A DNA stretch of 64,000 bases from Nanobdellota archaeon. Lineage in GTDB: Archaea; Nanobdellota; Nanobdellia; Pacearchaeales; GW2011-AR1. Numbering within the stretch: position 1 is the first letter of the stretch; the number at the start of each line of letters is the position of its first letter. The position numbers and the translations under genes are program-made. The DNA is taken from assembly GCA_013329055.1 (NCBI GenBank), contig DUKY01000011.1:16096-80095 (forward strand), in the 5' to 3' direction. The notes below the pieces were generated by a model that saw nothing but the letters and a program-made list of their open reading frames with translations, made no database searches and was not told where the DNA came from. Below, one piece after another: positions 14,034-64,000 of the stretch.

Positions 14034-14034
14034 C

Positions 14035-24298: not shown

Positions 24299-25144
24299 CT
24301 ATTGTACTTCTATTATCATCGGTTCATAAGGACTAAAGACTTTTTGGATTTTTATTTTTGTATCTGCTATTTTCCCGTTTGTATCACCCCTAATTGATGT
24401 GAAAAATATTTTTTTGGGTTTTAATTCTCCTACTGATTTAATTACTTTTTCTGCAGTTTTACCACTGCAACACCAATCATCAACAATTAAAACTTCTTCT
24501 TGATTTTCAATTCTATTTTGTAGATAATTTTTTGGTGATAGTTTTGGTAGCATTAATTCTGAATCATTTTTTGAAGTCTGCGAGTATCTTACTACAGTCA
24601 AATCATTTAACCCAGTTAATCCCATTGCTAAATATGCAGGTTCAAAACTTCCATTTGCAATAGCAATTATCTCTGTTGGTTTTATATTTTCTCTATATAA
24701 TTCTTGCTGTAATTTAAATCCAAAAGTTTGAATTTCTTTTTCTAATTCAAATAAATGTCTAATTTTTGATTTTATTCTTGTTTCACCAAATTTTAAAATA
24801 TTTTCTGTATAAGGTAAAATTATTTCTCTTATTTGATTCATATTTATTCCTTCTCCACTATAAAATTGTCCTATTGAAATTTTTCCTGCTTTTATTAATT
24901 GATCTAATGTTTCTTTTTGAGATTCCCAAACAGAACTTTGGGTTATATTTTCTTCAACTTGCTTAGAAATTAAACCGTCATGATATAACTGTGTTATTCC
25001 AAAAATATGTTCTTTAAAACTAATTATATTTTTTTCTTTTTCAAAATCCAGAATTAAATTTTCCAGGTAATTACGCTCAATTTTTGAAGAATTAATTTCT
25101 TTTTCATAAGAGCTATACAAATCTATCTGGGGTAATATTTGCAT
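24299..25144 (-). CDS. phosphoribosyltransferase-domain protein, paralog 2
   Basis: PRPP-binding loop VLIVDDWCCSGKTA. Shares blocks with paralog 1 (ITQLYHDGLIS, LIKAGKISI.QFYSGEGI.MNQ.REIILP, ANG.FEPAYLAM). Confidence 0.55.
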   Translation of the reverse strand: MQILPQIDLYSSYEKEINSSKIERNYLENLILDFEKEKNIISFKEHIFGITQLYHDGLISKQVEENITQSSVWESQKETLDQLIKAGKISIGQFYSGEGINMNQIREIILPYTENILKFGETRIKSKIRHLFELEKEIQTFGFKLQQELYRENIKPTEIIAIANGSFEPAYLAMGLTGLNDLTVVRYSQTSKNDSELMLPKLSPKNYLQNRIENQEEVLIVDDWCCSGKTAEKVIKSVGELKPKKIFFTSIRGDTNGKIADTKIKIQKVFSPYEPMIIEVQ

Positions 25145-26107: not shown

Positions 26108-27385
26108 ATGTGGGGTGAAATATATAAAAAAGGTCTTTCAACAGTTATCATAACTATTCTCCTGATTGGATTTGCGTTAGTAGCGATTGGAATTGTATGG
26201 ACGATTATTTTTAATATTGTCAATGAAGAATCTGAAAGAATAGGTGCTAATCAGTTATCTTTAGATTTAAATTTTGGTAAAATTGATGTTGAATTTCCTA
26301 ATAGTTTGAATGTTTCTGTAAAAAGGGACGTTGGTGAAGGTAAAATAGATGGCATTAAAATTGTTGCTGATGATGGCAAAACTTCAGAGATATTTTCATT
26401 TAATGAATCAATAGATGAATTAGAAACAAAAGTTTTCACTTTAAATTTTGTTGATTTATCTATTTTAAATGCTGAGAAACTTACTCTTTCTCCATACTTT
26501 TTAACAATTACCGGTAAAGAAGAAATTTTAGGTGTTGCAGATGTTAGAAATTTAGATTTATTTAATATTGGCTCTTTTAAAACCGGACAATTTATTACTA
26601 ATGGTGATGCAGAAATGGGTGATACTACTAATTGGGTGAATATTGACGGTATTGATTCAGAATTTTATTCCGGCAGTTATTCCTTTGTTGATGCTGGTGG
26701 AGGAACTATTTATTCAAAAGAATTAATACCTGTAGATAAAAATTATCTTTATCATTTAGAAGGAATGTTTAAATCAGATGGTATTGATCAAAGTCGTCTT
26801 TATTATGGATTTCTTCCTTATGATGAAAATTTAAAATTTATACCTCCTCAATCAGTTGATGCAATTCTAAATACTGAAACAACTCTTTATGAAGAGGTTC
26901 ATTCAACAGATACTTCTATAAAATTAACCAGTTGCAATAATTGGATAATTTTATGGTATGCAGTTGTTGCTTTTGATATAGATGATTCCGGAAATTATAA
27001 TGACCTTCCAAATTATAAAACAAGTGATTACAATATCAGTAAAATCACAAATTACCCTAATTATTGTGAAATTGAAATTGGAACTGGATATGGAGTTCAG
27101 CATTATGCAAAATTTAATGCTCCTGCAGGAACAAAAGTTAGACAACATCAATCCGGAGGAACTTATATGTACACTGCGGCTAGTAATTCATTGGTTCCAT
27201 TTTCCTGGACAAATTATCAAGGTGATGTTACTGGCATGTTTAACGAGGGTACATCTAGTACTAAATGGAGAAAAAACTCTACTTATGCCGTTGTTTTAAT
27301 CTTGCCTAATTATAATCAAACTTATGCTGGTTCACCTCTTCAACCAAGATTATTATTTGATGATTTAAAATTAACTATCAGTTAA
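26108..27385 (+). CDS. secreted protein with archaeal class III (pilin-like) signal peptide
   Basis: KGLSTVIITILLIGFALVAIGIVWTIIFNIV N-terminus. The following domain (VKRDVGEGKIDGIKIVADDGKTS) is shared with ORF 51775-52221. Confidence 0.55.
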   Translation: MWGEIYKKGLSTVIITILLIGFALVAIGIVWTIIFNIVNEESERIGANQLSLDLNFGKIDVEFPNSLNVSVKRDVGEGKIDGIKIVADDGKTSEIFSFNESIDELETKVFTLNFVDLSILNAEKLTLSPYFLTITGKEEILGVADVRNLDLFNIGSFKTGQFITNGDAEMGDTTNWVNIDGIDSEFYSGSYSFVDAGGGTIYSKELIPVDKNYLYHLEGMFKSDGIDQSRLYYGFLPYDENLKFIPPQSVDAILNTETTLYEEVHSTDTSIKLTSCNNWIILWYAVVAFDIDDSGNYNDLPNYKTSDYNISKITNYPNYCEIEIGTGYGVQHYAKFNAPAGTKVRQHQSGGTYMYTAASNSLVPFSWTNYQGDVTGMFNEGTSSTKWRKNSTYAVVLILPNYNQTYAGSPLQPRLLFDDLKLTIS

Positions 27386-45413: not shown

Positions 45414-46040
45414 ATGGATCAAGAATCAAAAAATATTTTAAAAACAGGAACAACAATCTTAGGAATTGTTTGCAAAAATGGAATTGTAATGGCAGGGGAT
45501 AATCGAGTATCACTTGGGCAAAGCATAATAATCGACAAAGACATGGAAAAAGTGTATCAAATAAATGATTACTTAGTTTTCTCTGGCTGTGGTTCAGCAA
45601 CAGAAGCACAAAAAGTAGCAAAAGTCTTAACCGCAGAATTAAAATTAAAAGAATTAAAATCCAGATCAAGACCAAGCGTAAGACAATCTGCTTCATTACT
45701 TTCTAATTTTCAAGTTTCACAAAGTGCATTTATCTTAGCAGGATTTGATGAAGACGGAGAAACATCACTATATGAAATAACAGGTGGATTTCTAAAAAAA
45801 GTTAAAGATTATACCGCAAGTGTCGGTTCAGGAATGCCTTATGTATTAGGACTTTTAGAAAGACAATACAAAAAAGATTTAACTCTAAAAGAAGGAATTG
45901 AACTAGCATCAGAATCCATAAAAGCATCTTCAGCAAGAGATATGGCATCAGGAAATGGAATAGACATTTATACCATAACAAAAGAAGGAATTAAAAAAGT
46001 AGTAACTCAAAGAACAGAACAAAACTACAAAGACGAATAA
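45414..46040 (+). CDS. psmB: proteasome subunit beta
   Basis: Short propeptide, then GTTILGIVCKNGIVMAGDNR. The length and the GSGMPY block are typical. Confidence 0.9.
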   Translation: MDQESKNILKTGTTILGIVCKNGIVMAGDNRVSLGQSIIIDKDMEKVYQINDYLVFSGCGSATEAQKVAKVLTAELKLKELKSRSRPSVRQSASLLSNFQVSQSAFILAGFDEDGETSLYEITGGFLKKVKDYTASVGSGMPYVLGLLERQYKKDLTLKEGIELASESIKASSARDMASGNGIDIYTITKEGIKKVVTQRTEQNYKDE

Positions 46041-46069: not shown

Positions 46070-47956
46070 ATGACAGATATTTTAAAGACAATAACAGAAA
46101 AACTTCACGGAAAAATAACCGAAGCAAACTTTGAAGGTGCAAATATAGTTCTATATACTGACAATGAAAAATTTTTCAAAGATGATGAAGGGAAAATCAG
46201 AGAAATTGTAAATGAAATTAAAAAAAGAATAGAATTAAGAGCAGATCAAAAAATCTTAAAAGATCAAAAAGAAGTAGAAAAACAAATCAAAGAGATTGTC
46301 CCAATAGATGCAGAAATCAGCGAAGTAATTTTTGATTATCATAGAAGTATCGTAATAATCGAAGCAAAAAAACCAGGTTTAGTAATTGGCAAGCAAGGCT
46401 CAATTCTGGAAGATATTCGAAAAGCAACTTTATGGGTGCCACAAATACAAAGAACACCGGCAATCAAAAGTAAAATTACAGATAATATAAGAGAAGTTCT
46501 TTATGCAAATAATAATTATAGAAGAAAATTCTTAAATGAAATTGGACAAAAAATCTACAAAGAATGGAACCCAGACAAATCTAAAGGATGGGTAAGACTA
46601 ACAATGCTTGGAGGAGCAAGACAAGTTGGAAGAAGCTGTATGCTGTTACAAACACCAAATTCAAGAATACTTTTAGATTGCGGTATTGATGTCGCATCAA
46701 ACGGACAAGATAAATTTCCGTTCTTTGATGTACCAGAATTTGATATCTCACAATTAGACGCAGTAATAATCAGCCACGCTCATCTTGACCATGTAGGACT
46801 ATTGCCTTATTTATTTAAAATGGGTTATAGAGGACCAGTTTACATGACACCACCAACAAGAGATATTGCAGCATTAATGTCATTAGATTTTATTGGCGTA
46901 GCATATAAACAGGCAGCAACACCATTATTCAGTTCAACAGACATTAAAGAGATGGTAAAACATAGTATTTGCTTAAATTATAATGAAGTTAGCGATATAA
47001 CACCGGATATCAGATTAACATTTTATAACGCAGGACATGCTTTAGGAAGTGCATTAGTACACTTAAATATTGGAAATGGATTTCATAATTTATTATACAC
47101 AGGAGATTACAAATACGGAAAATCAAGATTATTAGACCCGGCAGTTACAAATTTCCCAAGGGTAGAAACAGTAATAACAGAATCAACTTATGGAGCTAAA
47201 CAAGATATATTACCACCAAGACAACAATCTGAAGCAGAATTAATAGATAAAATCACAACAATCATTAATAGGGGCGGAAAAATATTAATCCCGGAATTAG
47301 GTCTTGGAAGAGCACAGGAAACAATGCTTATTTTAGAAGATGCAATGACATCAGGAAAATTACCAAAAATCCCAATATATATTGATGGTATGATTTGGGA
47401 TATTAATGCAATTCATACAGCTTATCCGGATTTTTTAAGCGGACAAGTAAAATCACAAGTGTTCCAGGATAATAATCCGTTTGTATCTGAAACTTTTTCA
47501 AGAGTGGGTTCACCTCAGGAAAGAAAAAAAGTCGTTGAAGGGGGACCATGTATAGTTTTAGCAACTTCAGGTATGCTTGTTGGAGGAGCATCAGTAGAAT
47601 ATTTAAAAGAATTTGCAGGCAATGAAAAAAATGCAATAATATTTGTATGTTATCAAGGAGTAGGTTCTTTAGGAAGACAAGTTCAAGACGGGGTAAAAGA
47701 AACAAAAATGATTGTTGATGGCAGAGAAGAGATTGTTAAAATAAATCTTGAAGTCCATACAATTCAAGGATTGACTGCTCACGCAGGAAGAAACGAAATA
47801 ATAGGTTTCTTCAATAACATGAGACCAAAACCAAAAAGAATAATTATCAATCACGGAGAAATTTCAAAATCATTAGATTTAGCTTCAGCAATTTACAAAC
47901 TTAACAAAGTTGAAACAAATGTTCCAAGATTATTAGAAACATTAAGATTACAATAA
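46070..47956 (+). CDS. aCPSF1-type KH-domain / metallo-beta-lactamase / beta-CASP ribonuclease
   Basis: N-terminal KH repeats (VIGKQGS), HAHLDH and the beta-CASP region. 628 aa is the canonical size. Confidence 0.9.
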   Translation: MTDILKTITEKLHGKITEANFEGANIVLYTDNEKFFKDDEGKIREIVNEIKKRIELRADQKILKDQKEVEKQIKEIVPIDAEISEVIFDYHRSIVIIEAKKPGLVIGKQGSILEDIRKATLWVPQIQRTPAIKSKITDNIREVLYANNNYRRKFLNEIGQKIYKEWNPDKSKGWVRLTMLGGARQVGRSCMLLQTPNSRILLDCGIDVASNGQDKFPFFDVPEFDISQLDAVIISHAHLDHVGLLPYLFKMGYRGPVYMTPPTRDIAALMSLDFIGVAYKQAATPLFSSTDIKEMVKHSICLNYNEVSDITPDIRLTFYNAGHALGSALVHLNIGNGFHNLLYTGDYKYGKSRLLDPAVTNFPRVETVITESTYGAKQDILPPRQQSEAELIDKITTIINRGGKILIPELGLGRAQETMLILEDAMTSGKLPKIPIYIDGMIWDINAIHTAYPDFLSGQVKSQVFQDNNPFVSETFSRVGSPQERKKVVEGGPCIVLATSGMLVGGASVEYLKEFAGNEKNAIIFVCYQGVGSLGRQVQDGVKETKMIVDGREEIVKINLEVHTIQGLTAHAGRNEIIGFFNNMRPKPKRIIINHGEISKSLDLASAIYKLNKVETNVPRLLETLRLQ

Positions 47957-48545: not shown

Positions 48546-49481
48546 ATGAAGCACAATCTAAAGATAACATTCATTCTTTTAGCAATGTTTATCTTAACGC
48601 AATTTATAGGACTTTATGTTGTGAGTTATTATTCTCCTGTTAAAATTATAGAAGGAGAAATTCAAAATGTAACAGAACCAAAAATATTGCCCTTTGGAAT
48701 GGATTCACCGAAAGTAGAAAAAGAATCAGATTATTACAATTTTTTTTCTTCAATAATAATATCGTTTATAATAGCAATTTTATTATTAACATTTTTAACA
48801 AAATTTAAAGCAGAATTCATCCTCAAATTATGGTTTTTTATTGTAGTTATGATTGCACTGGGTATTTCATTAAAGACAATTCTTCCTGATATAAAATACA
48901 TAACATTAATTTCATTAATTATTGTTCTGCCTTTAGCATATATTAAGATTTATCAAAGAAATTTCTTAGTTCATAATTTAACTGAATTATTTATTTATCC
49001 GGGAATTGCAGCAGTTTTTGTCCCGATTCTAAACATTTATACAATCATTGCATTATTAATTGCAATTTCAATTTATGACATGTGGGCAGTTTGGCATTCA
49101 GGAATAATGCAAAAAATGGCAAAATATCAAATTAATGAATTAAAGATATTCTCAGGATTTTTTATACCATATGCATCAAAAAAAGTAAAGCTGCAAATTC
49201 AAAAGATAAAAGAATCAAAAAAGAAATTAGGTAAAAAAATCAAAGTTAATGTAGCAATTTTAGGAGGAGGGGATATAATTTTCCCAATAATTACATCAGG
49301 AGTGATGCTAAAAACATTAGGGTTTATTCCGGCAATATTTGTAATAATTGGAGCAACAATAGGATTAAGTTATTTATTCTTCTTCGCAAAAAAGAAAAAA
49401 TTCTATCCTGCAATGCCATTTATTACTGCAGGAATATTCTTAGGGATTATTATAGGATATTTATTTGATAAATTTATATAA
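48546..49481 (+). CDS. presenilin/signal-peptide-peptidase-type intramembrane aspartyl protease homolog
   Basis: Polytopic protein with YD (SIYDMWAV), GxGD (LGGGDIIFP) and a PAL-like YPAMPF, in the canonical order. Confidence 0.7.
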   Translation: MKHNLKITFILLAMFILTQFIGLYVVSYYSPVKIIEGEIQNVTEPKILPFGMDSPKVEKESDYYNFFSSIIISFIIAILLLTFLTKFKAEFILKLWFFIVVMIALGISLKTILPDIKYITLISLIIVLPLAYIKIYQRNFLVHNLTELFIYPGIAAVFVPILNIYTIIALLIAISIYDMWAVWHSGIMQKMAKYQINELKIFSGFFIPYASKKVKLQIQKIKESKKKLGKKIKVNVAILGGGDIIFPIITSGVMLKTLGFIPAIFVIIGATIGLSYLFFFAKKKKFYPAMPFITAGIFLGIIIGYLFDKFI

Positions 49482-51774: not shown

Positions 51775-52221
51775 CTAAGATAAGGTTTTAGTATTTGTTC
51801 TAGGACAAAGTTGTTGATCACCAGCTTTACCAATAAAGTAGGGAGTAATTCCAACTTCAATAGGATTATTTACACCAACATTAGCCCAAGATTGACTTAC
51901 TGTTGCAAGAGGAACAATGTTTCCAGGTCTATCTAATACAGTTCCTGAAATAGTACCATCATTAAAAACAACCTTTATACCGTCAATATCTCTACCACCA
52001 GCTTTTCTTTCAACAAAAAGATTACAAGCAGTACCAGTACAATTAGTAGCAGTTGTTGATTCAATTTGAATATCTAAACATTCAAGTTGCAAATTAATTT
52101 CATCAGATTTACCACCGATTAAATTATTAATTACAGTCCAAACAACTCCAACAGCAACTAAAGCCAAAGCAACCATTATTACAGTAATAACAATTGCTGA
52201 CATTCCTTTTTTTGTTTCCAT
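51775..52221 (-). CDS. small secreted protein with archaeal class III (pilin-like) signal peptide
   Basis: KGMSAIVITVIMVALALVAVGVVWTVINNLI. The body shares VERKAGGRDIDGIKVVFNDGTIS with ORF 26108-27385. Confidence 0.6.
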   Translation of the reverse strand: METKKGMSAIVITVIMVALALVAVGVVWTVINNLIGGKSDEINLQLECLDIQIESTTATNCTGTACNLFVERKAGGRDIDGIKVVFNDGTISGTVLDRPGNIVPLATVSQSWANVGVNNPIEVGITPYFIGKAGDQQLCPRTNTKTLS

Positions 52222-53788: not shown

Positions 53789-56700
53789 TTAATCTTTTCT
53801 TAAATAAATTAAATAATAAATTCCAAGAATCAACAAAATAGTAATTATTAAATTGTAAAATCCAAAAAATGGAAGCTGTATTTTTGCAGGGCAAGAAATA
53901 GCATTAGAACCCCCAACACAAACTCTGGATAACTTAAGAGGATCATAATAATAAAGCCCATTTTGTAAAAAGTAATTATCAATATTATTTGACGGACCAT
54001 CATTAAAATCTGCATATCCATTATCAGCTCCCCAAGACCAGATAGTTGTCCATGAATATTCTAAAAATCCATCCTCACAATTATCATTAGAACTTTCAGA
54101 ATAAGAACAAAGACCAATAATTGGAGTTGATCCACAATCTAAACCAGGTATAAATTCCCAAGTATATGAACAAGCATTCAAAATATCATCCCATACACAT
54201 TTGCACTGCATTAAATAATTACATAAACCAGACACTAAAATCTCATCACCACATCGTGTATTATTCCAAACTTCAGGATAAGCCTTAAACACTTTTTCAT
54301 TCACATTATTTTCTGCAGCATTGCAACCAAAATTATCACAACTATTACAAGAAAGTTTATTTTCATAATCTTTGCATTCTGCAGTTGAATCTTGAACTAA
54401 AACAGTTAATTTACCACTTTCATATCCATTAATTTTAAAATAAAATCCATCATAATCATTAGTTTTTGCATAATCTTCTTCGGTAATTGTCCATTCACCA
54501 ATAATAATTCCCCAACCAACATTGCTAAATGTTCCAGAGATAGCATTTGAACCTGTTCGAATTTCATCATCAAAAACAGAATCATCTTCAAAGATTTCAA
54601 AATTAAATGAACCATTTAATATCCCGGTATTATTAAGCACTAACTTAACTGTTTCACCGATATAGGCTTCAGTTATTCTTAATCCATTAGAGTCAACAAA
54701 ATAAGCTTCTGGTTGAAGAATGCAAACATTTGAACAACCATCGCCATTAATTAAATTTTTATCATCACATTCTTCTGGAGATTCCTTAATACCATTACCA
54801 CAATTATTAGAAGTATTAACTAAATCACAAGAAAGATTATTTGAAGAATAGGATGAAATATCTGTAGTTAATGTTGGAATAAATAATTCATTAGTATTTC
54901 CAGTGCCTAATTGTCCATCATCATTTAATCCCCAGCATAAAATACGGGTATCATTTAATCTCGTTCCACAAGAATAATAACTTCCTGCACTTATTTGAAT
55001 ATATGCAGATATATCTGAAGTCAATGTTGGTTTATTTAAATTTGTAAAACCTCCATTTCCAAGTTCTCCATCTCCACCGTCTCCCCAACATAAAACTCTT
55101 GAGTCATTTGCTCGAATTCCACAAGAATGATAATCTCCAGTAGCAATTTTTTTATAAGCCGAAGTATCTGTTGTTAAAGTTGGAATTAAATTATCTTCTG
55201 TTTCACCATCCCCTAATTGTCCTTCACCACCATATCCCCAGCATAACACTCTTGAATCATTTTTTCTAATTCCGCAAGTATGACCATCAGAATAAATAGA
55301 TTTATATTCAGATGTATCAGTTGTAACATTTGGATTTAATTGAACAATTAAAGTTCGCCCATCTCCTAATTGCCCTTCACCACCATATCCCCAGCATAAC
55401 ACTCTTGAATCATTTTTTCTGATTCCACACGTATAATAATCACCAGCACTAATACTTTTATAAGCAGAAGTATCATTAATTAATGTTGGATTTCCTAAAT
55501 TTGAAAATCCCCCATTTCCAAGTTGTCCAAAATTACTATATCCCCAACATAAAACTCTTGAGTCATTAGCACGAATACCACAAACATGATTATAATCACC
55601 AACACTTACAGCAAGATATGCAGAGGAATCAGTTGTTAATGTTGGATTCATAACATTATGCCCATCAATATCACCATCTCCTAAAGCACCATACTTTCCA
55701 TAACCCCAGCATAATACTCTTCTATCACTTGTTCGAATTCCACAAGTCTGATAACCTCTAGCACTTACACTAATATATCCAGAAATATCAGAAGTTGTAT
55801 ATGGACTAAGTCTATCAAGTATATTTTGTCCATCTCCAAGTTGTCCATATACTGAATTACCCCAGCATAAAACCCTTGAATCATTTTTTCTAATACCACA
55901 AGTATGAGACCATCCTGCTGAAATTTTAATGTCATCACAAGAAGCACTAAAATTAAAAACTTCAATAATACAACTAGCTGAACAGCCATCACCATTAACT
56001 AAATTTTTATCATCACATTGTTCAGAACCTTCTTTTATACCATCACCGCAAACAGCAATAGAAACAGAAGGACAAAAATTTTCTGAAACATTATATCCTG
56101 AAGAATCAATGGTTACATTAGGATTTAATGACATATGATCCATAATTATACCATCTCCTAATTGTCCATAAAGAGATCTTCCCCAACATAATACTCTTCC
56201 ATCAATAAATCGAGTAGCACAACTATGATATAATCCTACACTAACCTGAGTATATCCTGAAGCCTCACTTATTAATTTAGGATTTCCGGTATCTAATGTG
56301 CCACCATTTCCTAACACACCATATTCCCCTCTACCCCAACATAATATACGACTGTCATTTGCACGAATTCCACAAGTATGATACCTATAAGGACTAATTT
56401 GTTTATATTCAGATGTATCTGTTGTTAAAGTAGGATTTCGAGCAAGATGTTCAATAGTAATTCCATCCCCTAAAATTCCAAATATTCCCCTTCCCCAACA
56501 CAAAACACGACTATCATTTGCACGAATTCCGCAAGTAGAATAAAATCCGGCATTTACTTGTTTATACGCACTTTTATCTGTTGTAACATTTGGATTAGGA
56601 TTACTAATAAAACTATTTTGTCCATTTCCTAATTTTGCATTTTCCATATCTCCCCAACATAATACTCTTGAGTCATTTGCACGAATTCCACAAGTATAAA

Positions 56701-58540
56701 TCCATCCTGCACTTATACTTGAATAAGCTGAAGTATCTGTTGTTAATGTTGGTACTGCTTTAAAACCACCAACAGTTCCATTTCCTAACTGTCCATAATC
56801 ATTAAGCCCCCAACATAATACTCTGGAATCACTTGCTCTAATTCCACAAGTATGGTCTAATCCTGTACTTATACTTAAATAAGCTGAAGAATCAACAGTT
56901 AAATTTGGATTTCCTACATTATGATTTCCAAGAATTCCATCTCCTAATGCCCCAGAATTTCCAGACCCCCAACATAATACCCTTGAGTCATTTGCACGAA
57001 TTCCACAAGTATGAAATCCTCCTGTACTTATACTTAAATATGGTGAAACATCAGTTGTAAGATTTGGACTAAATGTTTTATGATTTGACGTAATACCATC
57101 CCCTAAAATACCATACCATCCATATCCCCAACATAAAACACGAGAATCATTTGCACGAATTCCACAAGTCTGATAACTTCCTGCTGAAAGTTTAAAATAA
57201 TCACAGGAATTAAAAACTTCATGCATACAAGTCGAAGAACAACCATCACTATTGATTAAATTCCCATCATCACATTCTTCACCACCAGTAATAATACCAT
57301 CACCGCAAGAATTAGAAATACAACTAAAACCACAAGTTTCATCAGTAGAATAACCAGAGGGGTCAATAATCAAATTCGGGGATAAAACTTTATGAACAAC
57401 AATTGACCCATCTCCCAATTGTCCATCATTGCCTTCTCCCCAACATAATACCTTTGAATCATTCGTTCGAATACCGCAAGAATGTTGTGCACCAGTTGTT
57501 AAAATAGTATATGAAAAAACATCAGTTGTTAATGTTGGAACAGATTTATCCGCAGTTCCACCATTACCTAATTGCCCTAAAAATCCATAACCCCAACATA
57601 ATACACGAGAATCACTTTTTCTAATTACACAATTATGTGAAAAACCTGAATTTAAATCTCGACTTGCCGATGAATCTTGAGTCAAAGTTGGATTTCCAAC
57701 ACTATGATCAGAAGCAATTCCATCACCTAATCTCCCGCTAATTCCTCTTCCCCAACATAATACACGAGAATCGCTTGTTCTAATACCACAAGTATGAAAT
57801 GCTCCAGTACTAATTTCACTATACATCGAAGAATCAGTAGTCAATATCGGATTTGGAACATTATGTACATTTGTGTTTCCATCACCCAATTTTCCATAAT
57901 CCCCTCTTCCCCAACATAATACTCTTGAATCATTTGCTCGAATACCACAAGTAAAATCACTAATAGTATCAAGACTTTTATACGCAGAAGTATCATTAAT
58001 TAAATTAGGAATTAATATAGAATGTATTAATACATTCCCATCCCCAAGCATGCCATATACACCTTCTCCCCAGCACAATACTCTTGAATCATTTGCTCGA
58101 ATACCACAAGTATGATACCCTCCTGCACTTATACTGCTATATGCTGATGAATCAGAGATTAATGTTGGAATTAAATTATCTCCTGTACTTCCATCACCTA
58201 ATTGCCCTAAATTCCCTTCACCCCAACAAAGAACTCTTGAATCATTTTTCCTAATACCACAAGTATGAAGATTACCAGAACTTACACTAACATATACCGA
58301 TAAATCTGTAGTTAATGTTGGAACTGAATTATAACCTGTTCCCCCATCACCTAATTGTCCAGAACTACCCCTCCCCCAACATAAAACCCTTGAGTCATTA
58401 GCTCGAATACCACAAGTATGATATTGACCTCCGGAAATCTTAGAATAATCACAAGAAATTAAAGTAGAACAAGAATCAGCACTAATAAATAAAATATTAA
58501 TCAATAACAAAAAAAATAAAATAAACAAACCTCTTTTCAT
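53789..58540 (-). CDS. giant surface protein: signal peptide, 3 x 7 RCC1-like blades separated by Cys-rich CxxGxxExxEECDDxN repeats, shared C-terminal module, C-terminal TM anchor
   Basis: 21 occurrences of the (R/K)(V/I)LCWG-x4-G-x-LG-x-G blade signature with HTCGIR strands. Three CG(D/N)GI...(E/Q)CDD(G/K)NL(I/V)N(G/S)DGCS..C repeats. C-terminal QLPFFGFYNLIITILLILGIYYLIYLRKD. Confidence 0.8.
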   Translation of the reverse strand: MKRGLFILFFLLLINILFISADSCSTLISCDYSKISGGQYHTCGIRANDSRVLCWGRGSSGQLGDGGTGYNSVPTLTTDLSVYVSVSSGNLHTCGIRKNDSRVLCWGEGNLGQLGDGSTGDNLIPTLISDSSAYSSISAGGYHTCGIRANDSRVLCWGEGVYGMLGDGNVLIHSILIPNLINDTSAYKSLDTISDFTCGIRANDSRVLCWGRGDYGKLGDGNTNVHNVPNPILTTDSSMYSEISTGAFHTCGIRTSDSRVLCWGRGISGRLGDGIASDHSVGNPTLTQDSSASRDLNSGFSHNCVIRKSDSRVLCWGYGFLGQLGNGGTADKSVPTLTTDVFSYTILTTGAQHSCGIRTNDSKVLCWGEGNDGQLGDGSIVVHKVLSPNLIIDPSGYSTDETCGFSCISNSCGDGIITGGEECDDGNLINSDGCSSTCMHEVFNSCDYFKLSAGSYQTCGIRANDSRVLCWGYGWYGILGDGITSNHKTFSPNLTTDVSPYLSISTGGFHTCGIRANDSRVLCWGSGNSGALGDGILGNHNVGNPNLTVDSSAYLSISTGLDHTCGIRASDSRVLCWGLNDYGQLGNGTVGGFKAVPTLTTDTSAYSSISAGWIYTCGIRANDSRVLCWGDMENAKLGNGQNSFISNPNPNVTTDKSAYKQVNAGFYSTCGIRANDSRVLCWGRGIFGILGDGITIEHLARNPTLTTDTSEYKQISPYRYHTCGIRANDSRILCWGRGEYGVLGNGGTLDTGNPKLISEASGYTQVSVGLYHSCATRFIDGRVLCWGRSLYGQLGDGIIMDHMSLNPNVTIDSSGYNVSENFCPSVSIAVCGDGIKEGSEQCDDKNLVNGDGCSASCIIEVFNFSASCDDIKISAGWSHTCGIRKNDSRVLCWGNSVYGQLGDGQNILDRLSPYTTSDISGYISVSARGYQTCGIRTSDRRVLCWGYGKYGALGDGDIDGHNVMNPTLTTDSSAYLAVSVGDYNHVCGIRANDSRVLCWGYSNFGQLGNGGFSNLGNPTLINDTSAYKSISAGDYYTCGIRKNDSRVLCWGYGGEGQLGDGRTLIVQLNPNVTTDTSEYKSIYSDGHTCGIRKNDSRVLCWGYGGEGQLGDGETEDNLIPTLTTDTSAYKKIATGDYHSCGIRANDSRVLCWGDGGDGELGNGGFTNLNKPTLTSDISAYIQISAGSYYSCGTRLNDTRILCWGLNDDGQLGTGNTNELFIPTLTTDISSYSSNNLSCDLVNTSNNCGNGIKESPEECDDKNLINGDGCSNVCILQPEAYFVDSNGLRITEAYIGETVKLVLNNTGILNGSFNFEIFEDDSVFDDEIRTGSNAISGTFSNVGWGIIIGEWTITEEDYAKTNDYDGFYFKINGYESGKLTVLVQDSTAECKDYENKLSCNSCDNFGCNAAENNVNEKVFKAYPEVWNNTRCGDEILVSGLCNYLMQCKCVWDDILNACSYTWEFIPGLDCGSTPIIGLCSYSESSNDNCEDGFLEYSWTTIWSWGADNGYADFNDGPSNNIDNYFLQNGLYYYDPLKLSRVCVGGSNAISCPAKIQLPFFGFYNLIITILLILGIYYLIYLRKD

Positions 58541-58575: not shown

Positions 58576-60408
58576 TTAATCTTTTCTTAGAGAAATTAAT
58601 GAATAAATTCCAACAATTAAGAATATGGTAATTATTAAATTGTAAAATCCAAAAAATGGAAGTTGTATTTCGGCAGGACAAGGGATAATGTTTGAACCAC
58701 CGACGCATCTTTGGGATAATTTAAATGGATCATAATAATAAAGTCCATTTTCTAAAATATAATCAGCGACTTCATCAGAAGGACCATTACTATATATTGC
58801 ATATCCATTATCAGTCCCCCAAGCCCAAGTAGTTGTCCAGGAATATTCTAAAAATCCATCGTTACAATTATCAACAGTACTCTCACCATATTTACAACTA
58901 CCAACTGTTGGAATACTGCTATCTGTATCACAATCAAGTCCTGGAGAAGAACTCCAAGTATAATCACATTTACTTGTTGAAGAATTCCAAATGCATTTGC
59001 ATAACATTAAATATGAACATGAAGGATCAGGACCTGCGATTTCATCGCCACATTTAGTATCATTCCAAACATCAGGAAATGCTTCAAAGACTTTTTCATT
59101 AACGCTATTTTCTGCAGCATCACAACCAATATAATCACAATCATTACAACTTACTTCAGATTCATAATTTGAACACCAAGGAGTAACATCTTGAACTAAA
59201 ATTTCTAATCTGTTACTTTCATATCCATTAATTTTAAAATAAAAATCATCATAATCACCTATTTCAGTAATGGAGTAATCTTGTTCAGTTATTGTCCATT
59301 CGCCAATAATAATTCCCCAACCGACATTACTAAATGTTCCGGGAATAGCATTTATACCTGTCCGAATTTCATCATCAAAAGCAGGATCTTCCTCAAGAAT
59401 TTCAAAACTAAATGAACCATTTAAAATTCCGGTATTATTGAATACTAACTTAACAGTTTCACCAATATGAGCTTCAGTTATTTTTAATCCATTAGAATCT
59501 AAAAAATAAGCTTCAGGTTGAAGAACACAAGCATTTGAACAACCATCGCCATTAAATAAATTTTTATCATCACATTCTTCATAGCTCTTAAACCAAATTC
59601 CATCCCCGCAATAACTACTCTTATAAGTTTCAATTTCACAAATATTTGAACAACCATCAAATGAAATTAAATTACCATCATCACAATTTTCAGAACCAAT
59701 AAACAAAATACTATCCCCACAATAACTACTTGAATAAGTTTCTATATTACAAGTCGATGAACAGCTATCAAAATTAATTAAATTTCCGTCATCACACTCT
59801 TCAGAACCGACAAATAAAATATTATCACCACAATAATCATCATCATAAGTTTCTGTTAAACAAGTAGAAGAACAACCATCAAAAGAAATTTTATTACCAT
59901 CATCACAAGTTTCAAAAGACGGAAAAATAACATTATCCCCGCAATAATTACTTGAATAAGTTTCAGTTTTACAAGTTGATGAACAACTATCACCGGATTT
60001 AGTATTACCGTCGTCACATTCTTCAGGACCTTCTTTTAAACTATCACCACAAACAGAACAAGATGTTGAACATCCAGCAATACTATTTGGACTACAAGCT
60101 TGTGTACAACCACTACCAGCACAATAAAAATAATCAGTATAAGTTGTATATGAACCACTTGAAACGCAATTACCTTCATAACCTCCAGGTGTACCACCCC
60201 CTTGAGATGGAGAACATCCCCAACAACTTACACAGGTTCCACCACAACAGCAATTACCACAAGATAAAATAACACAACAACCAGTATACCAACCTGTACC
60301 AGTAACAGTCATTTTTTCATAAGTACCATAATCAACACAAGTATCAGCATTAATAAATAAAACATTAATTAATAATAAACCAAAAATAAGAAACACACAT
60401 CTTTTCAT
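58576..60408 (-). CDS. surface protein paralog: Cys/Gly-rich N-domain, 5 Cys-rich repeats, shared C-terminal module and anchor
   Basis: Signal peptide, then repeated YCGD(N/S)ILF.GSE.CDDGNLI.FD.CS..C units. The C-terminal ~310 aa are collinear with the other three paralogs. Confidence 0.75.
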   Translation of the reverse strand: MKRCVFLIFGLLLINVLFINADTCVDYGTYEKMTVTGTGWYTGCCVILSCGNCCCGGTCVSCWGCSPSQGGGTPGGYEGNCVSSGSYTTYTDYFYCAGSGCTQACSPNSIAGCSTSCSVCGDSLKEGPEECDDGNTKSGDSCSSTCKTETYSSNYCGDNVIFPSFETCDDGNKISFDGCSSTCLTETYDDDYCGDNILFVGSEECDDGNLINFDSCSSTCNIETYSSSYCGDSILFIGSENCDDGNLISFDGCSNICEIETYKSSYCGDGIWFKSYEECDDKNLFNGDGCSNACVLQPEAYFLDSNGLKITEAHIGETVKLVFNNTGILNGSFSFEILEEDPAFDDEIRTGINAIPGTFSNVGWGIIIGEWTITEQDYSITEIGDYDDFYFKINGYESNRLEILVQDVTPWCSNYESEVSCNDCDYIGCDAAENSVNEKVFEAFPDVWNDTKCGDEIAGPDPSCSYLMLCKCIWNSSTSKCDYTWSSSPGLDCDTDSSIPTVGSCKYGESTVDNCNDGFLEYSWTTTWAWGTDNGYAIYSNGPSDEVADYILENGLYYYDPFKLSQRCVGGSNIIPCPAEIQLPFFGFYNLIITIFLIVGIYSLISLRKD

Positions 60409-60430: not shown

Positions 60431-62287
60431 TTATAAAGATTTCTTTGGTTTTGTTAAATAAATTAGAGAATAAACTCCAAAAATTAAGAAGAAAGTAATT
60501 ATAAAATTATAAAATCCAAAGAATGGAAGCTGAACTTGTTCAGGACATAAAATAATATTTGCTCCACCAATACATTTCTCAGACAACTTAAATGGATCAT
60601 AATAATAAGTTGTTCCTTCTAAAGCATAATCATTGATATTGCTTGATGGACCATTATTATAATCTGTATAACCATTATCAGCTCCCCAAACCCAATTAGT
60701 TGTCCATGAATATTCCAAAAATCGATCTTCACAATCATCAAAAACATTTCGATTATATAAACAAATTCCGATTTTAGGATAAGAACTATTGCAATCAATT
60801 ACCGGATTTAAACCCCATGCATAATTACATTTATTTGCAAGATTATCCCAAATGCAATTGCATGATAATTGGTAAATGCAAGAAGTAAGATTATCTTCTA
60901 TGTAATCCCAGCAACGAGTATTATTCCAAAGATCAGGATTTTCTTGAAAGATATCTTCATTAAGACTATTTTCTGCAGCACTGCAACCAACATAATTGCA
61001 ATTATTGCAACTGCTTTCATCAACATAATTACTACACCAAGGGGTAATATCGGGAATAAGAATTTTTAAAAAATCACTCTCATATGAACCAATAACAAAA
61101 TAAAAATTATTATAATCTCCGACTTCAGTTTTTTTATAATCCTCTTCAGTAATTGTCCATTCTCCGATTATTTTACCAAAACCTTCATTATAATATATTC
61201 CAAAGATTGCATTGTCTCCTGTTCGAATTTCATCATTCAAAAATAAATCTTTTTCATAAACTTCAAAAGAATAATCATCAGTCAAATGGTATATCCCTAA
61301 ATTATCTCCGAGATTATCAAAAACTAACCTTATAGTCTCACCAATATGAGCCTGATTTATTCTTTCCCCATTAAGATTTTCCCAATAAACTTTAGTCTCT
61401 AAATCACATATACTTGAACAACCATCACCTGAGAGAGTATTACCATCATCACATCTTTCTTCACCCATAAATAAAATATTATCCCCGCACATATCTAAAG
61501 AATAAACTTCCTTTTTGCAGGAAAAACAACCATCAGAAGAATCATTATTGCCATCATCACACTTTTCAGGAACTTCAATGATTCCATTCCCGCAAACAGA
61601 ACAAGGCAATTCACCAATGTCTTGTGCAATTTGTTTGTAAATATCAATTAATCCATTATTTTCTCCATAGTAAACTTTACCTAATCCACAATTTGCAATA
61701 CTTGTCAAAGTATCCATATCAGCATTACTTCCAAAACCAACTGCATAAACAATTATACCATAATTGTTATATGCATCGCATGCAGATTTAATTGCATCTT
61801 CTGTAGCACTGCCAGTCCCTTGTTCTTCGCATTTAACATTTGCTTTTCCATCACTCATAATAACTATCGACTTAACTCCTTCACCTTCAAATTCTAAAAG
61901 TGTTTTATTAACAGCTTGATTTATACCGCAACAAATGCATGTTCCTTCACCAAGATACCACTCATCAATTTTATTCTTTAATGAAATACTATCGTAAGAT
62001 AATGGATAAGAGTTTACATCATCAACTTCCCGAGAATATCCAATTAAACCAACTTTATTTCCTGAAAAATTTAAAAGAATATCTATAAAGACCTTATTTG
62101 CATCTCTGGCAATATCAATCATCTTTCCACCTTGTTCAGAACAATTTGCGACACATTGATTCATGCTTCCAGATAAATCTGTTAAAGAAAAAACACCAAT
62201 ATTCTCGCATGCTTGTGCAAAAATTAAATTAAATTGAAAGATAAAACTAATTAATAAGATAAAAATAATATACATACACCTCTTCAT
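60431..62287 (-). CDS. surface protein paralog: vWA domain, Cys-rich repeats, shared C-terminal module and anchor
   Basis: Signal peptide, MIDAS DLSGSM, VIMSDGKAN, two Cys-rich repeats and the shared C-terminal module. Confidence 0.75.
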   Translation of the reverse strand: MKRCMYIIFILLISFIFQFNLIFAQACENIGVFSLTDLSGSMNQCVANCSEQGGKMIDIARDANKVFIDILLNFSGNKVGLIGYSREVDDVNSYPLSYDSISLKNKIDEWYLGEGTCICCGINQAVNKTLLEFEGEGVKSIVIMSDGKANVKCEEQGTGSATEDAIKSACDAYNNYGIIVYAVGFGSNADMDTLTSIANCGLGKVYYGENNGLIDIYKQIAQDIGELPCSVCGNGIIEVPEKCDDGNNDSSDGCFSCKKEVYSLDMCGDNILFMGEERCDDGNTLSGDGCSSICDLETKVYWENLNGERINQAHIGETIRLVFDNLGDNLGIYHLTDDYSFEVYEKDLFLNDEIRTGDNAIFGIYYNEGFGKIIGEWTITEEDYKKTEVGDYNNFYFVIGSYESDFLKILIPDITPWCSNYVDESSCNNCNYVGCSAAENSLNEDIFQENPDLWNNTRCWDYIEDNLTSCIYQLSCNCIWDNLANKCNYAWGLNPVIDCNSSYPKIGICLYNRNVFDDCEDRFLEYSWTTNWVWGADNGYTDYNNGPSSNINDYALEGTTYYYDPFKLSEKCIGGANIILCPEQVQLPFFGFYNFIITFFLIFGVYSLIYLTKPKKSL

Positions 62288-62330: not shown

Positions 62331-64000
62331 CTAATTTTTTCTAAGAACAAAATAAACACCAGCAATCAATAAGATAGTAATAATTAGATTATAAAATCCA
62401 AAGAATGGAAGCTGAACTTTTGCAGGACACAAAATTGTATTAGAACCTCCAACACAATTTCGAGATAATTTAAGAGGATCATAAAAATATGTATTGCTAC
62501 CATTAATACTCATGTTAAAATAATCATTAATATCATTTGACGGACCATCATTAAAATCTGCATATCCATTATCAGTTCCCCAAGTCCAAATAGTTGTCCA
62601 AGAATATCCTAAAAATCCATCATCACAAGTATCTGCAGTGCTTTCAGAATAAGTACAAGCACCAATATCCGGAGTACAGTTTAAAGGAACCAATTCCCAA
62701 GAATATGAACAAGAATTCAAAATATCATCCCATACACATTTACATTGTATTTCATAAATACATGAAGAATTAGAATCAATAATTTCATCACCACACCTAT
62801 AATCCCCCCAAACTTCAGGATAAGCTTCAAAAACTTTTTTATTCACACTTTTTTCAGCAGCTATACAACCAGAATTATCACAACTATTACAAGAAAATTC
62901 ATCAACATAATATTTGCATTCTTCAGTTAAATCCCTTGTTAAAATTGTTAAATTATTACTTTTATATCCATTAATAGTAAAATAAAAACCATCATAATCA
63001 CCAACATCGGTCTTAGCATAATCTTCTTCTGTGATAGTCCAATTTCCAAGAACATTTCCAAAACCTACGTTACTAAATACTCCCGAGATACCCCCTGCAC
63101 CAGTTCGAATATTATCATCTGGATTCAAAAAAGAATCTTTTTCAAAAATTTCAAAATTAAATGGACCAGTTAAATTTAATCCGGAATTATTTAAAATTAA
63201 TTTAACTGTATCACCAACATGAGCCTGTGTAATTCTTACCCCATTAGAATTTAACCAATAAACTTCTGGTTGAAGAATACAAACATTTGAACAGCCATCG
63301 CCATTAACTAAATTTTTATCATCGCATTCTTCTGGAGATTCCTTAATACCATTACCGCAAATAGTCTCATTCTTGCAAATCGAAGAGCAACCGTCACCAT
63401 TAATTGAATTGTTATCATCACATTCTTCGCCACTTTCAAGAATACCATTACCACAAACATTGCAAGACATATTAAGCATAATATCCTGCGAGATTTGCTT
63501 ATACACATCAACTAAATCAAAATCCCCAGAGTAATATCTTCCATGACCGCAATCAGCCATTTTCTGTAAAGTTTTTTTACCAGCATCAGCTCCAAAACCT
63601 ACAGTATGCACAACAATACCATAATCTTCATATGCATCACATGAAGCTTGAATTGCAGCATTTTCCGAACTTAAACTAGGATATTTATCAAGACACTGTA
63701 TATTTGCTTCTCCGTCACTCATTACCACCAGAACTTTATAAGCAGAAGAATCTGATTCATTAAACATTTTATCTATTGCATTAAGAACCCCACAACAAAT
63801 GCAAGTTCTACCATAAGAAGCCCAAGAATCAATTGTATTAATCAAAGAAACTGAATTATTTGATAATTCATGATAACCAGTATCATTTGAAACAGTTGCA
63901 TAAGTAACTAAACCAACTTCATTACCGGAAACTTTAAAAAGATTTTCAATAAATGCCTTATTTGCTCTTTGTGCAAGATCCATTCTTTGATAATAAGTTC
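62331..64000 (-). CDS. surface protein paralog (vWA type), 5'-truncated by the window edge
   Basis: The reading frame stays open upstream of the track Met to position 64000. The sequence aligns from about residue 55 of ORF 60431-62287. VVMSDGEAN, two Cys-rich repeats and the shared C-terminal module are present. Confidence 0.75.
   Translation of the reverse strand, partial: TYYQRMDLAQRANKAFIENLFKVSGNEVGLVTYATVSNDTGYHELSNNSVSLINTIDSWASYGRTCICCGVLNAIDKMFNESDSSAYKVLVVMSDGEANIQCLDKYPSLSSENAAIQASCDAYEDYGIVVHTVGFGADAGKKTLQKMADCGHGRYYSGDFDLVDVYKQISQDIMLNMSCNVCGNGILESGEECDDNNSINGDGCSSICKNETICGNGIKESPEECDDKNLVNGDGCSNVCILQPEVYWLNSNGVRITQAHVGDTVKLILNNSGLNLTGPFNFEIFEKDSFLNPDDNIRTGAGGISGVFSNVGFGNVLGNWTITEEDYAKTDVGDYDGFYFTINGYKSNNLTILTRDLTEECKYYVDEFSCNSCDNSGCIAAEKSVNKKVFEAYPEVWGDYRCGDEIIDSNSSCIYEIQCKCVWDDILNSCSYSWELVPLNCTPDIGACTYSESTADTCDDGFLGYSWTTIWTWGTDNGYADFNDGPSNDINDYFNMSINGSNTYFYDPLKLSRNCVGGSNTILCPAKVQLPFFGFYNLIITILLIAGVYFVLRKN

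What the first reader, a model, noticed from the sequence alone, without database searches (positions are those of the whole stretch)
53789..53881. Conserved PFFGF-TM-basic C-terminus: candidate novel sorting/anchoring signal
All four paralogs end the same way: QLPFFGFYN, then a ~20-residue hydrophobic helix, then a short basic tail (LRKD, LRKD, LTKPKKSL, LRKN). The corresponding DNA lies at 53789-53881, 58576-58668, 60431-60535 and 62331-62420.

This tripartite layout mirrors the signals processed by archaeosortases and exosortases (for example PGF-CTERM, PEP-CTERM). However, the motif differs from the ones I know. No sortase-like gene is visible in this window.
Basis: partly seen in the sequence, partly recalled or inferred. 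Interest (0 to 1): 0.6.

Follow-up and report, generated by a model that had tools for sequence, protein, structure and literature searches.

The report
Conserved membrane-anchor cassette of DPANN surface proteins
The shared PFFGF-helix-basic ending is real and turns out to be the most conserved part of a large, undescribed family of cell-surface proteins of tiny DPANN archaea, but it always comes with the same neighbouring domain, so it looks like a family-specific membrane anchor and not a general sorting tag.

Summary
Four tandem minus-strand genes (five in the source genome) end in CP(A/E)x(I/V)QLPFFGFYN, an 18-20 residue hydrophobic helix, and a basic tail.

The motif reaches far beyond these paralogs. 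A tail-only profile found 290 protein clusters. All but one were in contigs labelled Woese-/Pace-/Nanoarchaeota, Diapherotrites or Iainarchaeum, or simply 'archaeon'.

The consensus is C-P-A-Q-[IV]-Q-L-P-F-F-G-x-Y-N, a helix with near-invariant Ile(+15) and Tyr(+19), then Lys/Arg. The conservation holds in a sample chosen by the N-terminus alone. No Pfam or NCBIfam model covers it. Loki-CTERM and Heimdall-CTERM give only sub-threshold hits.

Two hallmarks of a sortase-type signal were not found:
- Every carrier also has homologous upstream modules, at least a Cys-containing membrane-proximal domain. Other anchored surface proteins in the same genomes lack the motif.
- No exosortase/archaeosortase or recurrent multi-pass membrane gene lies near the carriers.

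Most carriers are one syntenic core gene, flanked by RtcB upstream and a ~900-aa PKD protein and a GTPase downstream.

Best reading: a retained type I anchor cassette of a DPANN surface-protein superfamily. A processed, family-specific signal remains possible (about 0.2-0.25). Genome-wide sortase co-occurrence could not be tested.

The parts
53789..58540 (-). Paralog 1, 1583 aa: signal peptide, about 20 RCC1 repeats, DUF4215 Cys-rich repeats, shared C-terminal module, LPFFG tail
   Evidence: ORF; Pfam RCC1, WD40_RLD and DUF4215; tail
53861..53893 (-). Paralog 1 juxtamembrane signature CPAKIQLPFFG
   Evidence: pattern match starts at 53893 on the minus strand
53801..53860 (-). Paralog 1 hydrophobic helix FYNLIITILLILGIYYLIYL. 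It is followed by RKD (53792-53800) and the stop codon (53789-53791)
   Evidence: coordinates derived from the translation
58576..60408 (-). Paralog 2, 610 aa: signal peptide, five DUF4215/myxo_disulf repeats, shared C-terminal module, LPFFG tail
58648..58680 (-). Paralog 2 juxtamembrane signature CPAEIQLPFFG. In the AlphaFold2 model it is a coil linker (residues 270-280, block pLDDT 67) between the last beta-strand and the helix
58588..58647 (-). Paralog 2 predicted transmembrane helix (model residues 281-300). It is followed by RKD and the stop codon (58576-58587)
   Evidence: helix 281-300
58576..59487 (-). Shared ~300-aa C-terminal module of paralog 2: Ig-like beta-sandwich, Cys-rich segment, membrane-proximal beta domain, tail. 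The equivalent modules of the other paralogs lie at 53789-54700, 60431-61360 and 62331-63260
   Evidence: Alignment A1; model with pLDDT 90.5; tandem Ig-like fold matches only
60431..62287 (-). Paralog 3, 618 aa: signal peptide, vWA domain, DUF4215 repeats, shared module. Its tail is CPEQVQLPFFG + helix + TKPKKSL, at 60431-60547
62331..64000 (-). Paralog 4, cut by the window end (1063 aa in the source contig): DUF4215, vWA, DUF4215, shared module. Its tail is CPAKVQLPFFG + helix + RKN, at 62331-62429

Best explanation
**What it is.** The PFFGF-helix-basic ending is the C-terminal end of a conserved anchoring cassette. The cassette belongs to a large, uncharacterised cell-surface protein superfamily of DPANN archaea, mainly the Woese-/Pace-/Nanoarchaeota lineages.

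**What the cassette contains.**
- A small Cys-containing membrane-proximal beta domain.
- An 11-residue extended linker, C-P-A-Q-[IV]-Q-L-P-F-F-G.
- A ~20-residue helix with near-invariant Ile(+15), Ile/Val(+18) and Tyr(+19).
- A Lys/Arg-rich cytoplasmic tail.

**Shown.**
- The proteins have N-terminal Sec-type signal peptides.
- The cassette sits at the extreme C-terminus.
- It is always linked to homologous upstream modules.
- It carries varied heads: three 'TNAH' repeats in the core family; RCC1 propellers, vWA and Cys-rich repeats in this window; PKD, LamG and cupredoxin elsewhere.
- It is the most conserved segment of the family.

**Inferred mechanism.**
- After Sec export the helix acts as a stop-transfer type I anchor, and the Lys/Arg tail stays in the cytoplasm (positive-inside rule).
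- The aromatic LPFFGxY collar sits at the outer membrane interface, just below a short segment bounded by two conserved Cys (likely disulfide-bonded), and fixes how the ectodomain stands on the membrane.
- The conserved helix face mediates lateral packing. The partner could be the protein itself or another membrane protein, for example the ~900-aa PKD protein encoded next to most core copies.

**In this genome.** The cassette has been reused in a tandem array of five genes to display different adhesin-like heads.
For: - **Breadth.** The tail-only profile found 290 clusters at E<=1e-3, nearly all matches at the extreme C-terminus. The position frequencies are C94 P88 A80 Q70 L92 P95 F100 F95 G67 Y77 N62 I86(+15) Y96(+19), then K/R.
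- **Unbiased check.** The same conservation holds in a sample ascertained by the N-terminal region only: 52 of 53 proteins with the membrane-proximal domain have the tail, with C98 P96 L96 P96 F95 F100 I95 Y96.
- **One superfamily.** The full-length consensus architecture is shared by 113 carriers. HMM dissection finds upstream family modules in all but 4 of 164 full-length carriers; three of those four still show the membrane-proximal Cys pattern by eye and P0163 is doubtful.
- **Other anchored proteins in the same genomes lack the motif**.
- **Varied heads**.
- **Structure model.** AlphaFold2 gives pLDDT 90.5: beta-rich ectodomains, the signature as a coil linker (residues 270-280) and a helix at 281-300.
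- **Long cytoplasmic tails.** Lys/Arg/Ser tails of up to ~25 residues are common. This suggests the cytoplasmic end is kept.
- **Synteny.** The core copy lies in the order archease, RtcB, carrier, ~900-aa PKD protein, GTPase, OapB, OapC, CCA enzyme. No recurrent multi-pass membrane gene and no PF09721 hit was seen.
- **Taxonomy.** Real copies were found only in contigs labelled as DPANN groups or simply 'archaeon', apart from one 594-bp contig binned as Bacteroidetes.
Against: - A plain anchor does not need an 11-residue, almost invariant, non-globular linker. Such segments are typical recognition or cleavage sites.
- The layout is the same as in sortase-type signals: a P-x-F-G-like motif at the start of the helix, then a helix, then basic residues.
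- Retention of the helix in the mature protein is inferred, not shown.
- The packing partner and the disulfide are speculative.
- Whole genomes could not be searched for processing enzymes.
- Copy number per genome comes from a truncated scan, with a pattern that captures about 70% of variants.
Confidence: 0.55

Rival explanations
1. It is a true C-terminal sorting signal, a DPANN 'LPFFG-CTERM'. A dedicated membrane enzyme, an archaeosortase-like transpeptidase or an unrelated analogue, recognises CPAQIQLPFFG at the outer face. It cuts off the helix and basic tail and attaches the protein to a lipid or another envelope component. The substrate range is narrow, limited to this one superfamily.
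For: - The architecture is tripartite and at the extreme C-terminus.
- The signature is the most conserved segment of the family and is predicted to be an exposed coil, not part of a fold.
- P-F-F-G resembles the P-G-F-G, P-E-F and P-E-F-G motifs of archaeosortase substrates (my own knowledge, not tested).
- Lineage-specific archaeal CTERM classes exist in NCBIfam (Loki-CTERM, Heimdall-CTERM) and give weak sub-threshold hits on the helix and basic part.
- ArtA genomes can have as few as one substrate (PMC6098224).
- The cassette carries many different heads.
Against: - The tail is never seen without the homologous membrane-proximal domain.
- Other anchored surface proteins of the same genomes do not use it.
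- No exosortase-family gene was found in the window, or in the 20-kb contexts of four other genomes, or among multi-pass proteins of 74 loci.
- The review read here describes archaeosortases in a subset of Euryarchaeota and makes no statement about DPANN lineages.
- Helix positions +15 and +19 are about 95% conserved, and long Lys-rich tails are common. Both are odd for a segment that would be discarded.
- No curated CTERM model reaches its cut-off.
Confidence: 0.22
2. The helix is a substrate of the presenilin/SPP-type intramembrane aspartyl protease encoded nearby (window 48546-49481). Cleavage would release or turn over the surface proteins. The conserved linker and helix face would be the recognition elements.
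For: - A presenilin-family PSH/SPP gene lies 4-9 kb from carriers in the window and in three other genomes.
- Carriers are type I single-pass proteins, the substrate class of presenilins (established knowledge).
- The helix has conserved positions.
Against: - The SPP gene belongs to a conserved SPP-aCPSF1-proteasome housekeeping block, so its proximity is explained by general synteny.
- An SPP gene recurred in only 3 of the 8-kb loci.
- Presenilin homologs occur widely in archaea that lack this motif (established knowledge).
- There is no direct evidence.
Confidence: 0.05
3. It is a plain hydrophobic anchor, and the shared motif only reflects recent duplication of four paralogs. It would have no functional meaning beyond hydrophobicity.
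For: The four window genes are tandem paralogs with 55-70% identity over 300 aa.
Against: - The signature is kept in homologs down to about 30% identity and in 290 clusters from many DPANN lineages.
- It is the best conserved stretch even in a sample chosen without reference to it.
- Family relatives with plain anchors show what an unconstrained anchor looks like.
Confidence: 0.03

Closest known systems
PGF-CTERM / archaeosortase A (ArtA), with the related PEF-CTERM and PEFG-CTERM classes
   Same: - All have a motif starting with Pro and containing Phe(-Gly) at the start of a C-terminal helix, followed by basic residues.
- All occur on Sec-exported archaeal surface proteins.
- PGF-CTERM proteins can also have a conserved domain just upstream (the 'PGF-pre-PGF' domain, from my own knowledge).
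   Different: - No match to those NCBIfam models, even at E<=10.
- The signature is longer (CPAQIQLPFFG) and starts with an invariant Cys-Pro.
- The motif is restricted to one homologous superfamily.
- No archaeosortase was found nearby.
- The review read here describes archaeosortases in a subset of Euryarchaeota only (PMC6098224).
- Cleavage and lipidation are untested.
Loki-CTERM (NF033507) and Heimdall-CTERM (NF045529) sorting domains
   Same: - They are lineage-specific archaeal C-terminal helix-plus-basic domains defined by bioinformatics.
- They are the only CTERM models that give any hit on these tails.
   Different: - The hits are below the cut-offs: 12.5-14.8 bits against 19.9, and 7-14 bits against 24.
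- The hits cover only the helix and basic part, not the LPFFG signature.
CGP-CTERM of Thermococcales (from my own knowledge)
   Same: - It has an invariant Cys-(Gly)-Pro just outside a C-terminal helix with a basic tail.
- No cognate sortase has been firmly identified.
   Different: - The motif and spacing differ: here Cys-Pro lies 6 residues before LPFFG.
- No model match was found.
- The lineage is different.
SlaB-type S-layer stalk or anchor proteins: Ig-like domains plus a retained C-terminal transmembrane helix
   Same: - Beta-sandwich ectodomains stand on a single C-terminal helix that stays in the membrane.
- The gene is paired with a second large surface-protein gene.
- Candidate SlaB-like anchors with Ig folds and a C-terminal helix are proposed for the DPANN archaeon Nanobdella (10.1101/2023.10.27.564410).
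   Different: - No sequence or specific fold relationship was detected; only generic Ig-like matches appeared.
- The role in an S-layer is unknown.
- SlaB is not described with a comparable conserved juxtamembrane motif (my own knowledge).
LPXTG/sortase, PEP-CTERM/exosortase and GlyGly-CTERM/rhombosortase systems
   Same: The same general tripartite logic: motif, helix, basic cluster.
   Different: - Those signals are mainly bacterial systems and sit on many unrelated proteins per genome, together with a cognate enzyme.
- Neither property was found here.

Membership tests
Sortase-type C-terminal sorting signals (archaeosortase/exosortase/rhombosortase substrates) | Tripartite architecture at the extreme C-terminus: signature motif, hydrophobic helix, basic cluster | tested here: met
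Sortase-type C-terminal sorting signals (archaeosortase/exosortase/rhombosortase substrates) | The signal is a portable tag found on several otherwise unrelated proteins of a genome | tested here: not met
   - All carriers share homologous upstream modules, at least the Cys-containing membrane-proximal domain.
- Other anchored surface proteins in the same loci lack the motif.
- Only the heads vary.
Sortase-type C-terminal sorting signals (archaeosortase/exosortase/rhombosortase substrates) | Co-occurrence with a cognate sortase-like membrane enzyme in the same genomes | tested here: inconclusive
   - No exosortase-family or recurrent multi-pass gene was found in the 64-kb window, in 20-kb contexts of four other genomes, or in 74 8-kb loci.
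- Whole genomes could not be searched with these tools.
Sortase-type C-terminal sorting signals (archaeosortase/exosortase/rhombosortase substrates) | Proteolytic removal of the helix and covalent attachment to a lipid or the wall | not testable with these tools
   This needs proteomics or biochemistry.
PGF-CTERM, PEF-CTERM, PEP-CTERM and other curated CTERM domains (NCBIfam) | Score above the curated cut-off of the family model | tested here: not met
   - No CTERM model hit on window tails or on 63 carriers.
- On 10 tails at E<=10 only Loki-CTERM and Heimdall-CTERM appeared, both below cut-off.
Retained type I (stop-transfer) membrane anchor | An N-terminal signal peptide, a single C-terminal hydrophobic helix of about 20 residues, and positive residues on the cytoplasmic side | tested here: met
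   - N-termini such as MKRGLFILFFLLLINILFISAD.
- Helix at residues 281-300 in the model.
- K/R tails.
Retained type I (stop-transfer) membrane anchor | The helix is present in the mature protein | not testable with these tools
   This is inferred only, from conserved helix positions and long Lys-rich tails.

The most novel reading that the evidence does not exclude
CPAQIQLPFFG-helix-KKK is a genuinely new protein-sorting signal of Woese-/Pace-/Nanoarchaeota. A still unidentified membrane enzyme would cleave it: a divergent archaeosortase, the conserved presenilin homolog, or something new. That enzyme would then transfer a core envelope protein, and lineage-specific adhesins built on the same cassette, onto lipid. 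This would happen in organisms that are thought to scavenge their lipids from hosts.
Probability: 0.2. Interest if true: 0.8.

Novelty: new variant of a known kind. Interest (0 to 1): 0.5.

Why it matters
DPANN archaea of the Woese-/Pacearchaeota type are uncultivated, ultra-small and probably host-attached. According to a 2023 preprint on Nanobdella, no S-layer or envelope protein had been determined experimentally for any DPANN archaeon.

This work does four things:
- It defines a widespread protein superfamily with no Pfam or NCBIfam model. Its core member sits in a conserved gene block, next to a second large surface protein.
- It shows that the family's most constrained element is the few residues where the protein enters the membrane.
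- It gives a simple sequence handle, the LPFFG cassette, for listing surface proteins and candidate host-adhesion proteins in these genomes. The RCC1, vWA and Cys-repeat array of this window is one example.
- It frames a sharp, testable question: is this a retained anchor or a new sorting signal?

If the signal proves to be processed, it would extend sortase-like surface anchoring to a major archaeal lineage where none is known.

Tried and rejected
- **Tail-only search in the word-indexed protein database.** The third returned only two fragments of the same family, so it was uninformative. The exhaustive profile search replaced it.
- **First DNA pattern.** Those two results are void, and one viral-contig scan was wasted. 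The corrected pattern was checked on the window before the single genome scan.
- **BLAST clustering of N-terminal parts.** Single linkage merged everything into one component, so it could not resolve architectures. HMM dissection replaced it.
- **Fold search against the PDB.** It gave only generic tandem Ig-like (Fab/TCR) similarity at E about 3e-3, with no specific relative.
- **Literature searches.** Searches for LPFFG/PFFGF, archaeosortase or sortase with DPANN, and Woese-/Pacearchaeales surface proteins found nothing about this motif. They also found no statement about archaeosortases in these lineages. Haft et al. 2012 is not held in the library.
- **Window ORF 17386-18120 as a hidden sortase.** This 244-aa, 7-helix ORF has no Pfam or NCBIfam match, so nothing supports the idea.
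Full report
**1. The observation**

The four intervals translate on the minus strand to (I/V)QLPFFGFYN, then 18-20 hydrophobic residues, then LRKD, LRKD, LTKPKKSL and LRKN, each followed by a stop codon. A six-frame scan of the window found the motif nowhere else.

The four ORFs lie at 53789-58540, 58576-60408, 60431-62287 and 62331-63983. All have Sec-type signal peptides except the last, which is cut by the window end. Their heads differ: about 20 RCC1 repeats, DUF4215/'myxo' Cys-rich repeats, and vWA domains.

They share a ~300-aa C-terminal module at 55-70% identity, and QLPFFGFYN is its longest invariant run. A few synonymous changes lie inside that run. The conserved block really starts six residues earlier, at an invariant Cys-Pro.

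The window is 27% G+C and archaeal. It encodes a proteasome subunit, aCPSF1, RNase P Rpp14 and pilin-like proteins with class III-type N-termini. It is identical over this locus to contig DUHR01000007.1 of assembly GCA_013330745.1 and to groundwater metagenome contigs. There the array has five paralogs (725, 1063, 618, 610 and 1583 aa). It is preceded by a 922-aa S8 peptidase whose C-terminal helix has no such motif.

**2. How far the motif reaches**

Homologs of the C-terminal module at 30-49% identity keep 'CPAxIxLPFFGxY + helix + Lys/Arg'.

I built a 34-position profile of the tail alone and searched it exhaustively against 1.84 billion representative proteins. It found 290 proteins at E<=1e-3, and nearly all matches end at the C-terminus. 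Anchored on L-P-F-F, the top 150 give these frequencies:
- C94 P88 A80 Q70 I60 Q53 | L92 P95 F100 F95 G67 x Y77 N62
- a hydrophobic stretch with I86 at +15, I72 at +18 and Y96 at +19
- Lys/Arg for 3 to about 25 residues
- a second Cys at -15/-16 and a Gly at -12

That sample was chosen with the tail itself, so I built a second one from the N-terminal 240 residues only. Among 103 new proteins, 53 have the membrane-proximal domain. Of those, 52 have the tail and the one exception is truncated. The frequencies are the same or higher: C98 P96 A85 L96 P96 F95 F100 I95(+15) Y96(+19). So the conservation is not an artefact of how the sample was chosen. The juxtamembrane segment is the most conserved 10-residue window of the whole protein.

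About 74 of them translate to a real tail. All but one are in contigs labelled Woesearchaeota, Pacearchaeota, Nanoarchaeota/Nanoarchaeia, Diapherotrites or Iainarchaeum, or in unclassified 'archaeon' records. The exception is a 594-bp contig binned as Bacteroidetes. The roughly 45 bacterial and other hits have no helix and no nearby stop, so they are chance matches.

**3. What carries it**

An alignment of 113 carriers gives a full-length consensus:
- a signal peptide
- three repeats of 'C...LSxxTNAHxE...Y...LCC'
- an Ig-like domain
- a Cys-rich segment
- a membrane-proximal domain 'GxCxYxExxDxCxDGFLxYSW...W...C..G.....'
- CPAQIQLPFFGxYN, the helix and KKK

HMMs of each segment show that 160 of 164 full-length carriers have at least one upstream family module. 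Three of the remaining four still show the C..G[FY]..[YI].W...C..GG....C.AQ pattern by eye; P0163 has only a loose Cys-rich resemblance. No Pfam or NCBIfam model covers any of these core segments. Only the heads are recognised: DUF4215/myxo repeats, PKD, LamG, cupredoxin, vWA and TSP3.

So the portable unit is a cassette of about 60-100 residues, not a bare 30-residue tag. Other anchored surface proteins of the same genomes lack the motif:
- the S8 peptidase
- a DUF4215 protein and the PKD protein next to P0007
- the ~900-aa protein described below
- several TNAH-repeat proteins with ordinary helices

**4. Structure**

I ran AlphaFold2 on the 303-aa module of paralog 2 with a 108-sequence alignment. 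The model has mean pLDDT 90.5 and pTM 0.71. It shows beta-rich domains whose last strand spans residues 264-269. CPAEIQLPFFG (270-280) is a coil with lower confidence (block mean 67). A helix follows at 281-300. The PDB search gives only generic tandem Ig-like matches.

The signature is therefore an extended linker at the membrane surface, not part of a fold.

**5. Genomic context**

In the 74 real loci the carrier lies in a conserved block:
- RtcB in 26 loci and archease in 11, upstream
- a ~900-aa PKD protein immediately downstream in at least 55 loci. It has a signal peptide, a helix and a conserved cytoplasmic 'GWNSEQIRYxxRKYxGKRTGM' end
- a small GTPase in 35 loci, OapB in 28, OapC in 22 and the CCA enzyme in 20, further downstream
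- pilin-like genes upstream

Wider 20-kb contexts in three genomes show the order pilins, PilB, PilC, PilC, two unknown genes, archease, RtcB, carrier, PKD protein, GTPase, OapB, OapC, CCA enzyme, TrmB, presenilin-like SPP, aCPSF1, proteasome.

No PF09721 (exosortase) hit appears in any of these contexts. The only recurrent multi-pass membrane family is T2SSF. Single multi-pass neighbours are a Cys-loop channel, an ABC-2 permease, a VTT/DedA protein and a DUF4190 protein. Most assemblies hit by the truncated scan had one copy, and three had two. The five-gene array of this window is an expansion with swapped heads.

**6. Comparison with known signals**

NCBIfam at E<=10 gave no CTERM family on the window tails and none on 63 carriers. 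On ten tails it gave only sub-threshold Loki-CTERM (12.5-14.8 bits against a cut-off of 19.9) and Heimdall-CTERM (7-14 bits against 24). Those hits cover the helix and basic part only.

The review read here places archaeosortases in a subset of Euryarchaeota, with one to 52 PGF-CTERM substrates per genome (PMC6098224). I found no paper on this motif and none on sortases in these lineages.

From my own knowledge, P-F-F-G resembles P-G-F-G, P-E-F and P-E-F-G of archaeosortase substrates, and an invariant Cys-Pro recalls CGP-CTERM. These are leads, not tests.

**7. Interpretation**

The layout and the extreme conservation of an exposed linker fit a recognition site. Several findings point the other way:
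- The tail is strictly coupled to one homologous membrane-proximal domain.
- Other anchored proteins do not use it.
- Copy number is low.
- Helix positions are conserved.
- Long Lys-rich tails are frequent.
- No candidate enzyme lies nearby.

Together these favour a retained, family-specific type I anchor cassette (confidence 0.55). In this reading the aromatic LPFFGxY collar and Tyr(+19) mark the two membrane interfaces, and the helix packs against itself or a partner.

A narrow-range processed signal remains possible (0.22). So does cleavage by the neighbouring presenilin homolog (0.05). 'Mere paralogy' is refuted. The remainder is unassigned.

**8. What was not done**

Whole-genome co-occurrence with a sortase-like enzyme and any test of cleavage were out of reach. 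Both are listed as decisive next steps.

Noticed in passing
L006:11480-14185; L017:4608-7319; at least 55 of the 74 real loci (for example L007, L028, L050): A second conserved surface protein of about 850-950 aa is encoded directly downstream of the core LPFFG carrier. It has a signal peptide with 'SASF.VGN.SHSI', a PKD domain, a helix, and a conserved cytoplasmic end 'LKKAGWNSEQIRYxxRKYxGKRTGMxEIP'. Only its PKD domain has a Pfam model. The two genes look like a conserved envelope gene pair.
   Followed up: partly
P0007 residues 24-146 and most core carriers (A4, A7): Three tandem repeats 'C...LSxxTNAHxE...Y...LCC' form the head of the core family. The Asn-Ala-His is nearly invariant, and no Pfam or NCBIfam model matches. 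This may be a metal- or glycan-binding module. The same head also occurs on proteins with ordinary helices (P0231, P0235, P0246).
   Followed up: partly
window 48546-49481 (+): A presenilin/SPP-family intramembrane aspartyl protease (PF06550, E 7e-15; NCBIfam PSH below cut-off). It sits next to aCPSF1 (46070-47956) and a proteasome subunit (45414-46040). The same SPP-aCPSF1-proteasome block lies 7-9 kb from the carrier in three other genomes.
   Followed up: partly
L001:1-2629 (source contig, beyond the window end): A 922-aa subtilisin-like S8 peptidase heads the tandem array of five paralogs. It has its own, unrelated C-terminal helix and a longer cytoplasmic tail.
   Followed up: partly
window 1631-16782 (-): By reading the translations only, this stretch looks like a defence island. 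It appears to hold a SNF2-type helicase (1631-3418), a type I restriction-modification methylase (3523-4971), a specificity subunit (7066-8235), a restriction subunit (14035-16782), and several unknown genes between them. It was not checked with any library.
   Followed up: no
window 51775-52221 (-) and 26108-27385 (+): Two proteins have pilin-like N-termini ('GMSAIVITVIMVALALVAVGVVW', 'GLSTVIITILLIGFALVAIGIVW'), typical of archaeal class III signal peptides. The first lies between the U32 peptidase and the radical SAM gene, close to the array. It has no Pfam hit.
   Followed up: partly
window 17386-18120 (+): A 244-aa protein with about seven predicted helices and no Pfam or NCBIfam match. 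It is the only unexplained multi-pass membrane protein in the window.
   Followed up: partly
window 23338-24186 and 24299-25144 (-): Two adjacent paralogous genes (282 and 281 aa) of unknown function with similar N-terminal halves. They were not examined.
   Followed up: no
L048 (PIVJ01000879.1, 594 bp): A perfect LPFFG tail sits on a 594-bp contig binned as 'Bacteroidetes bacterium'. This is most likely a mis-binned DPANN fragment.
   Followed up: no
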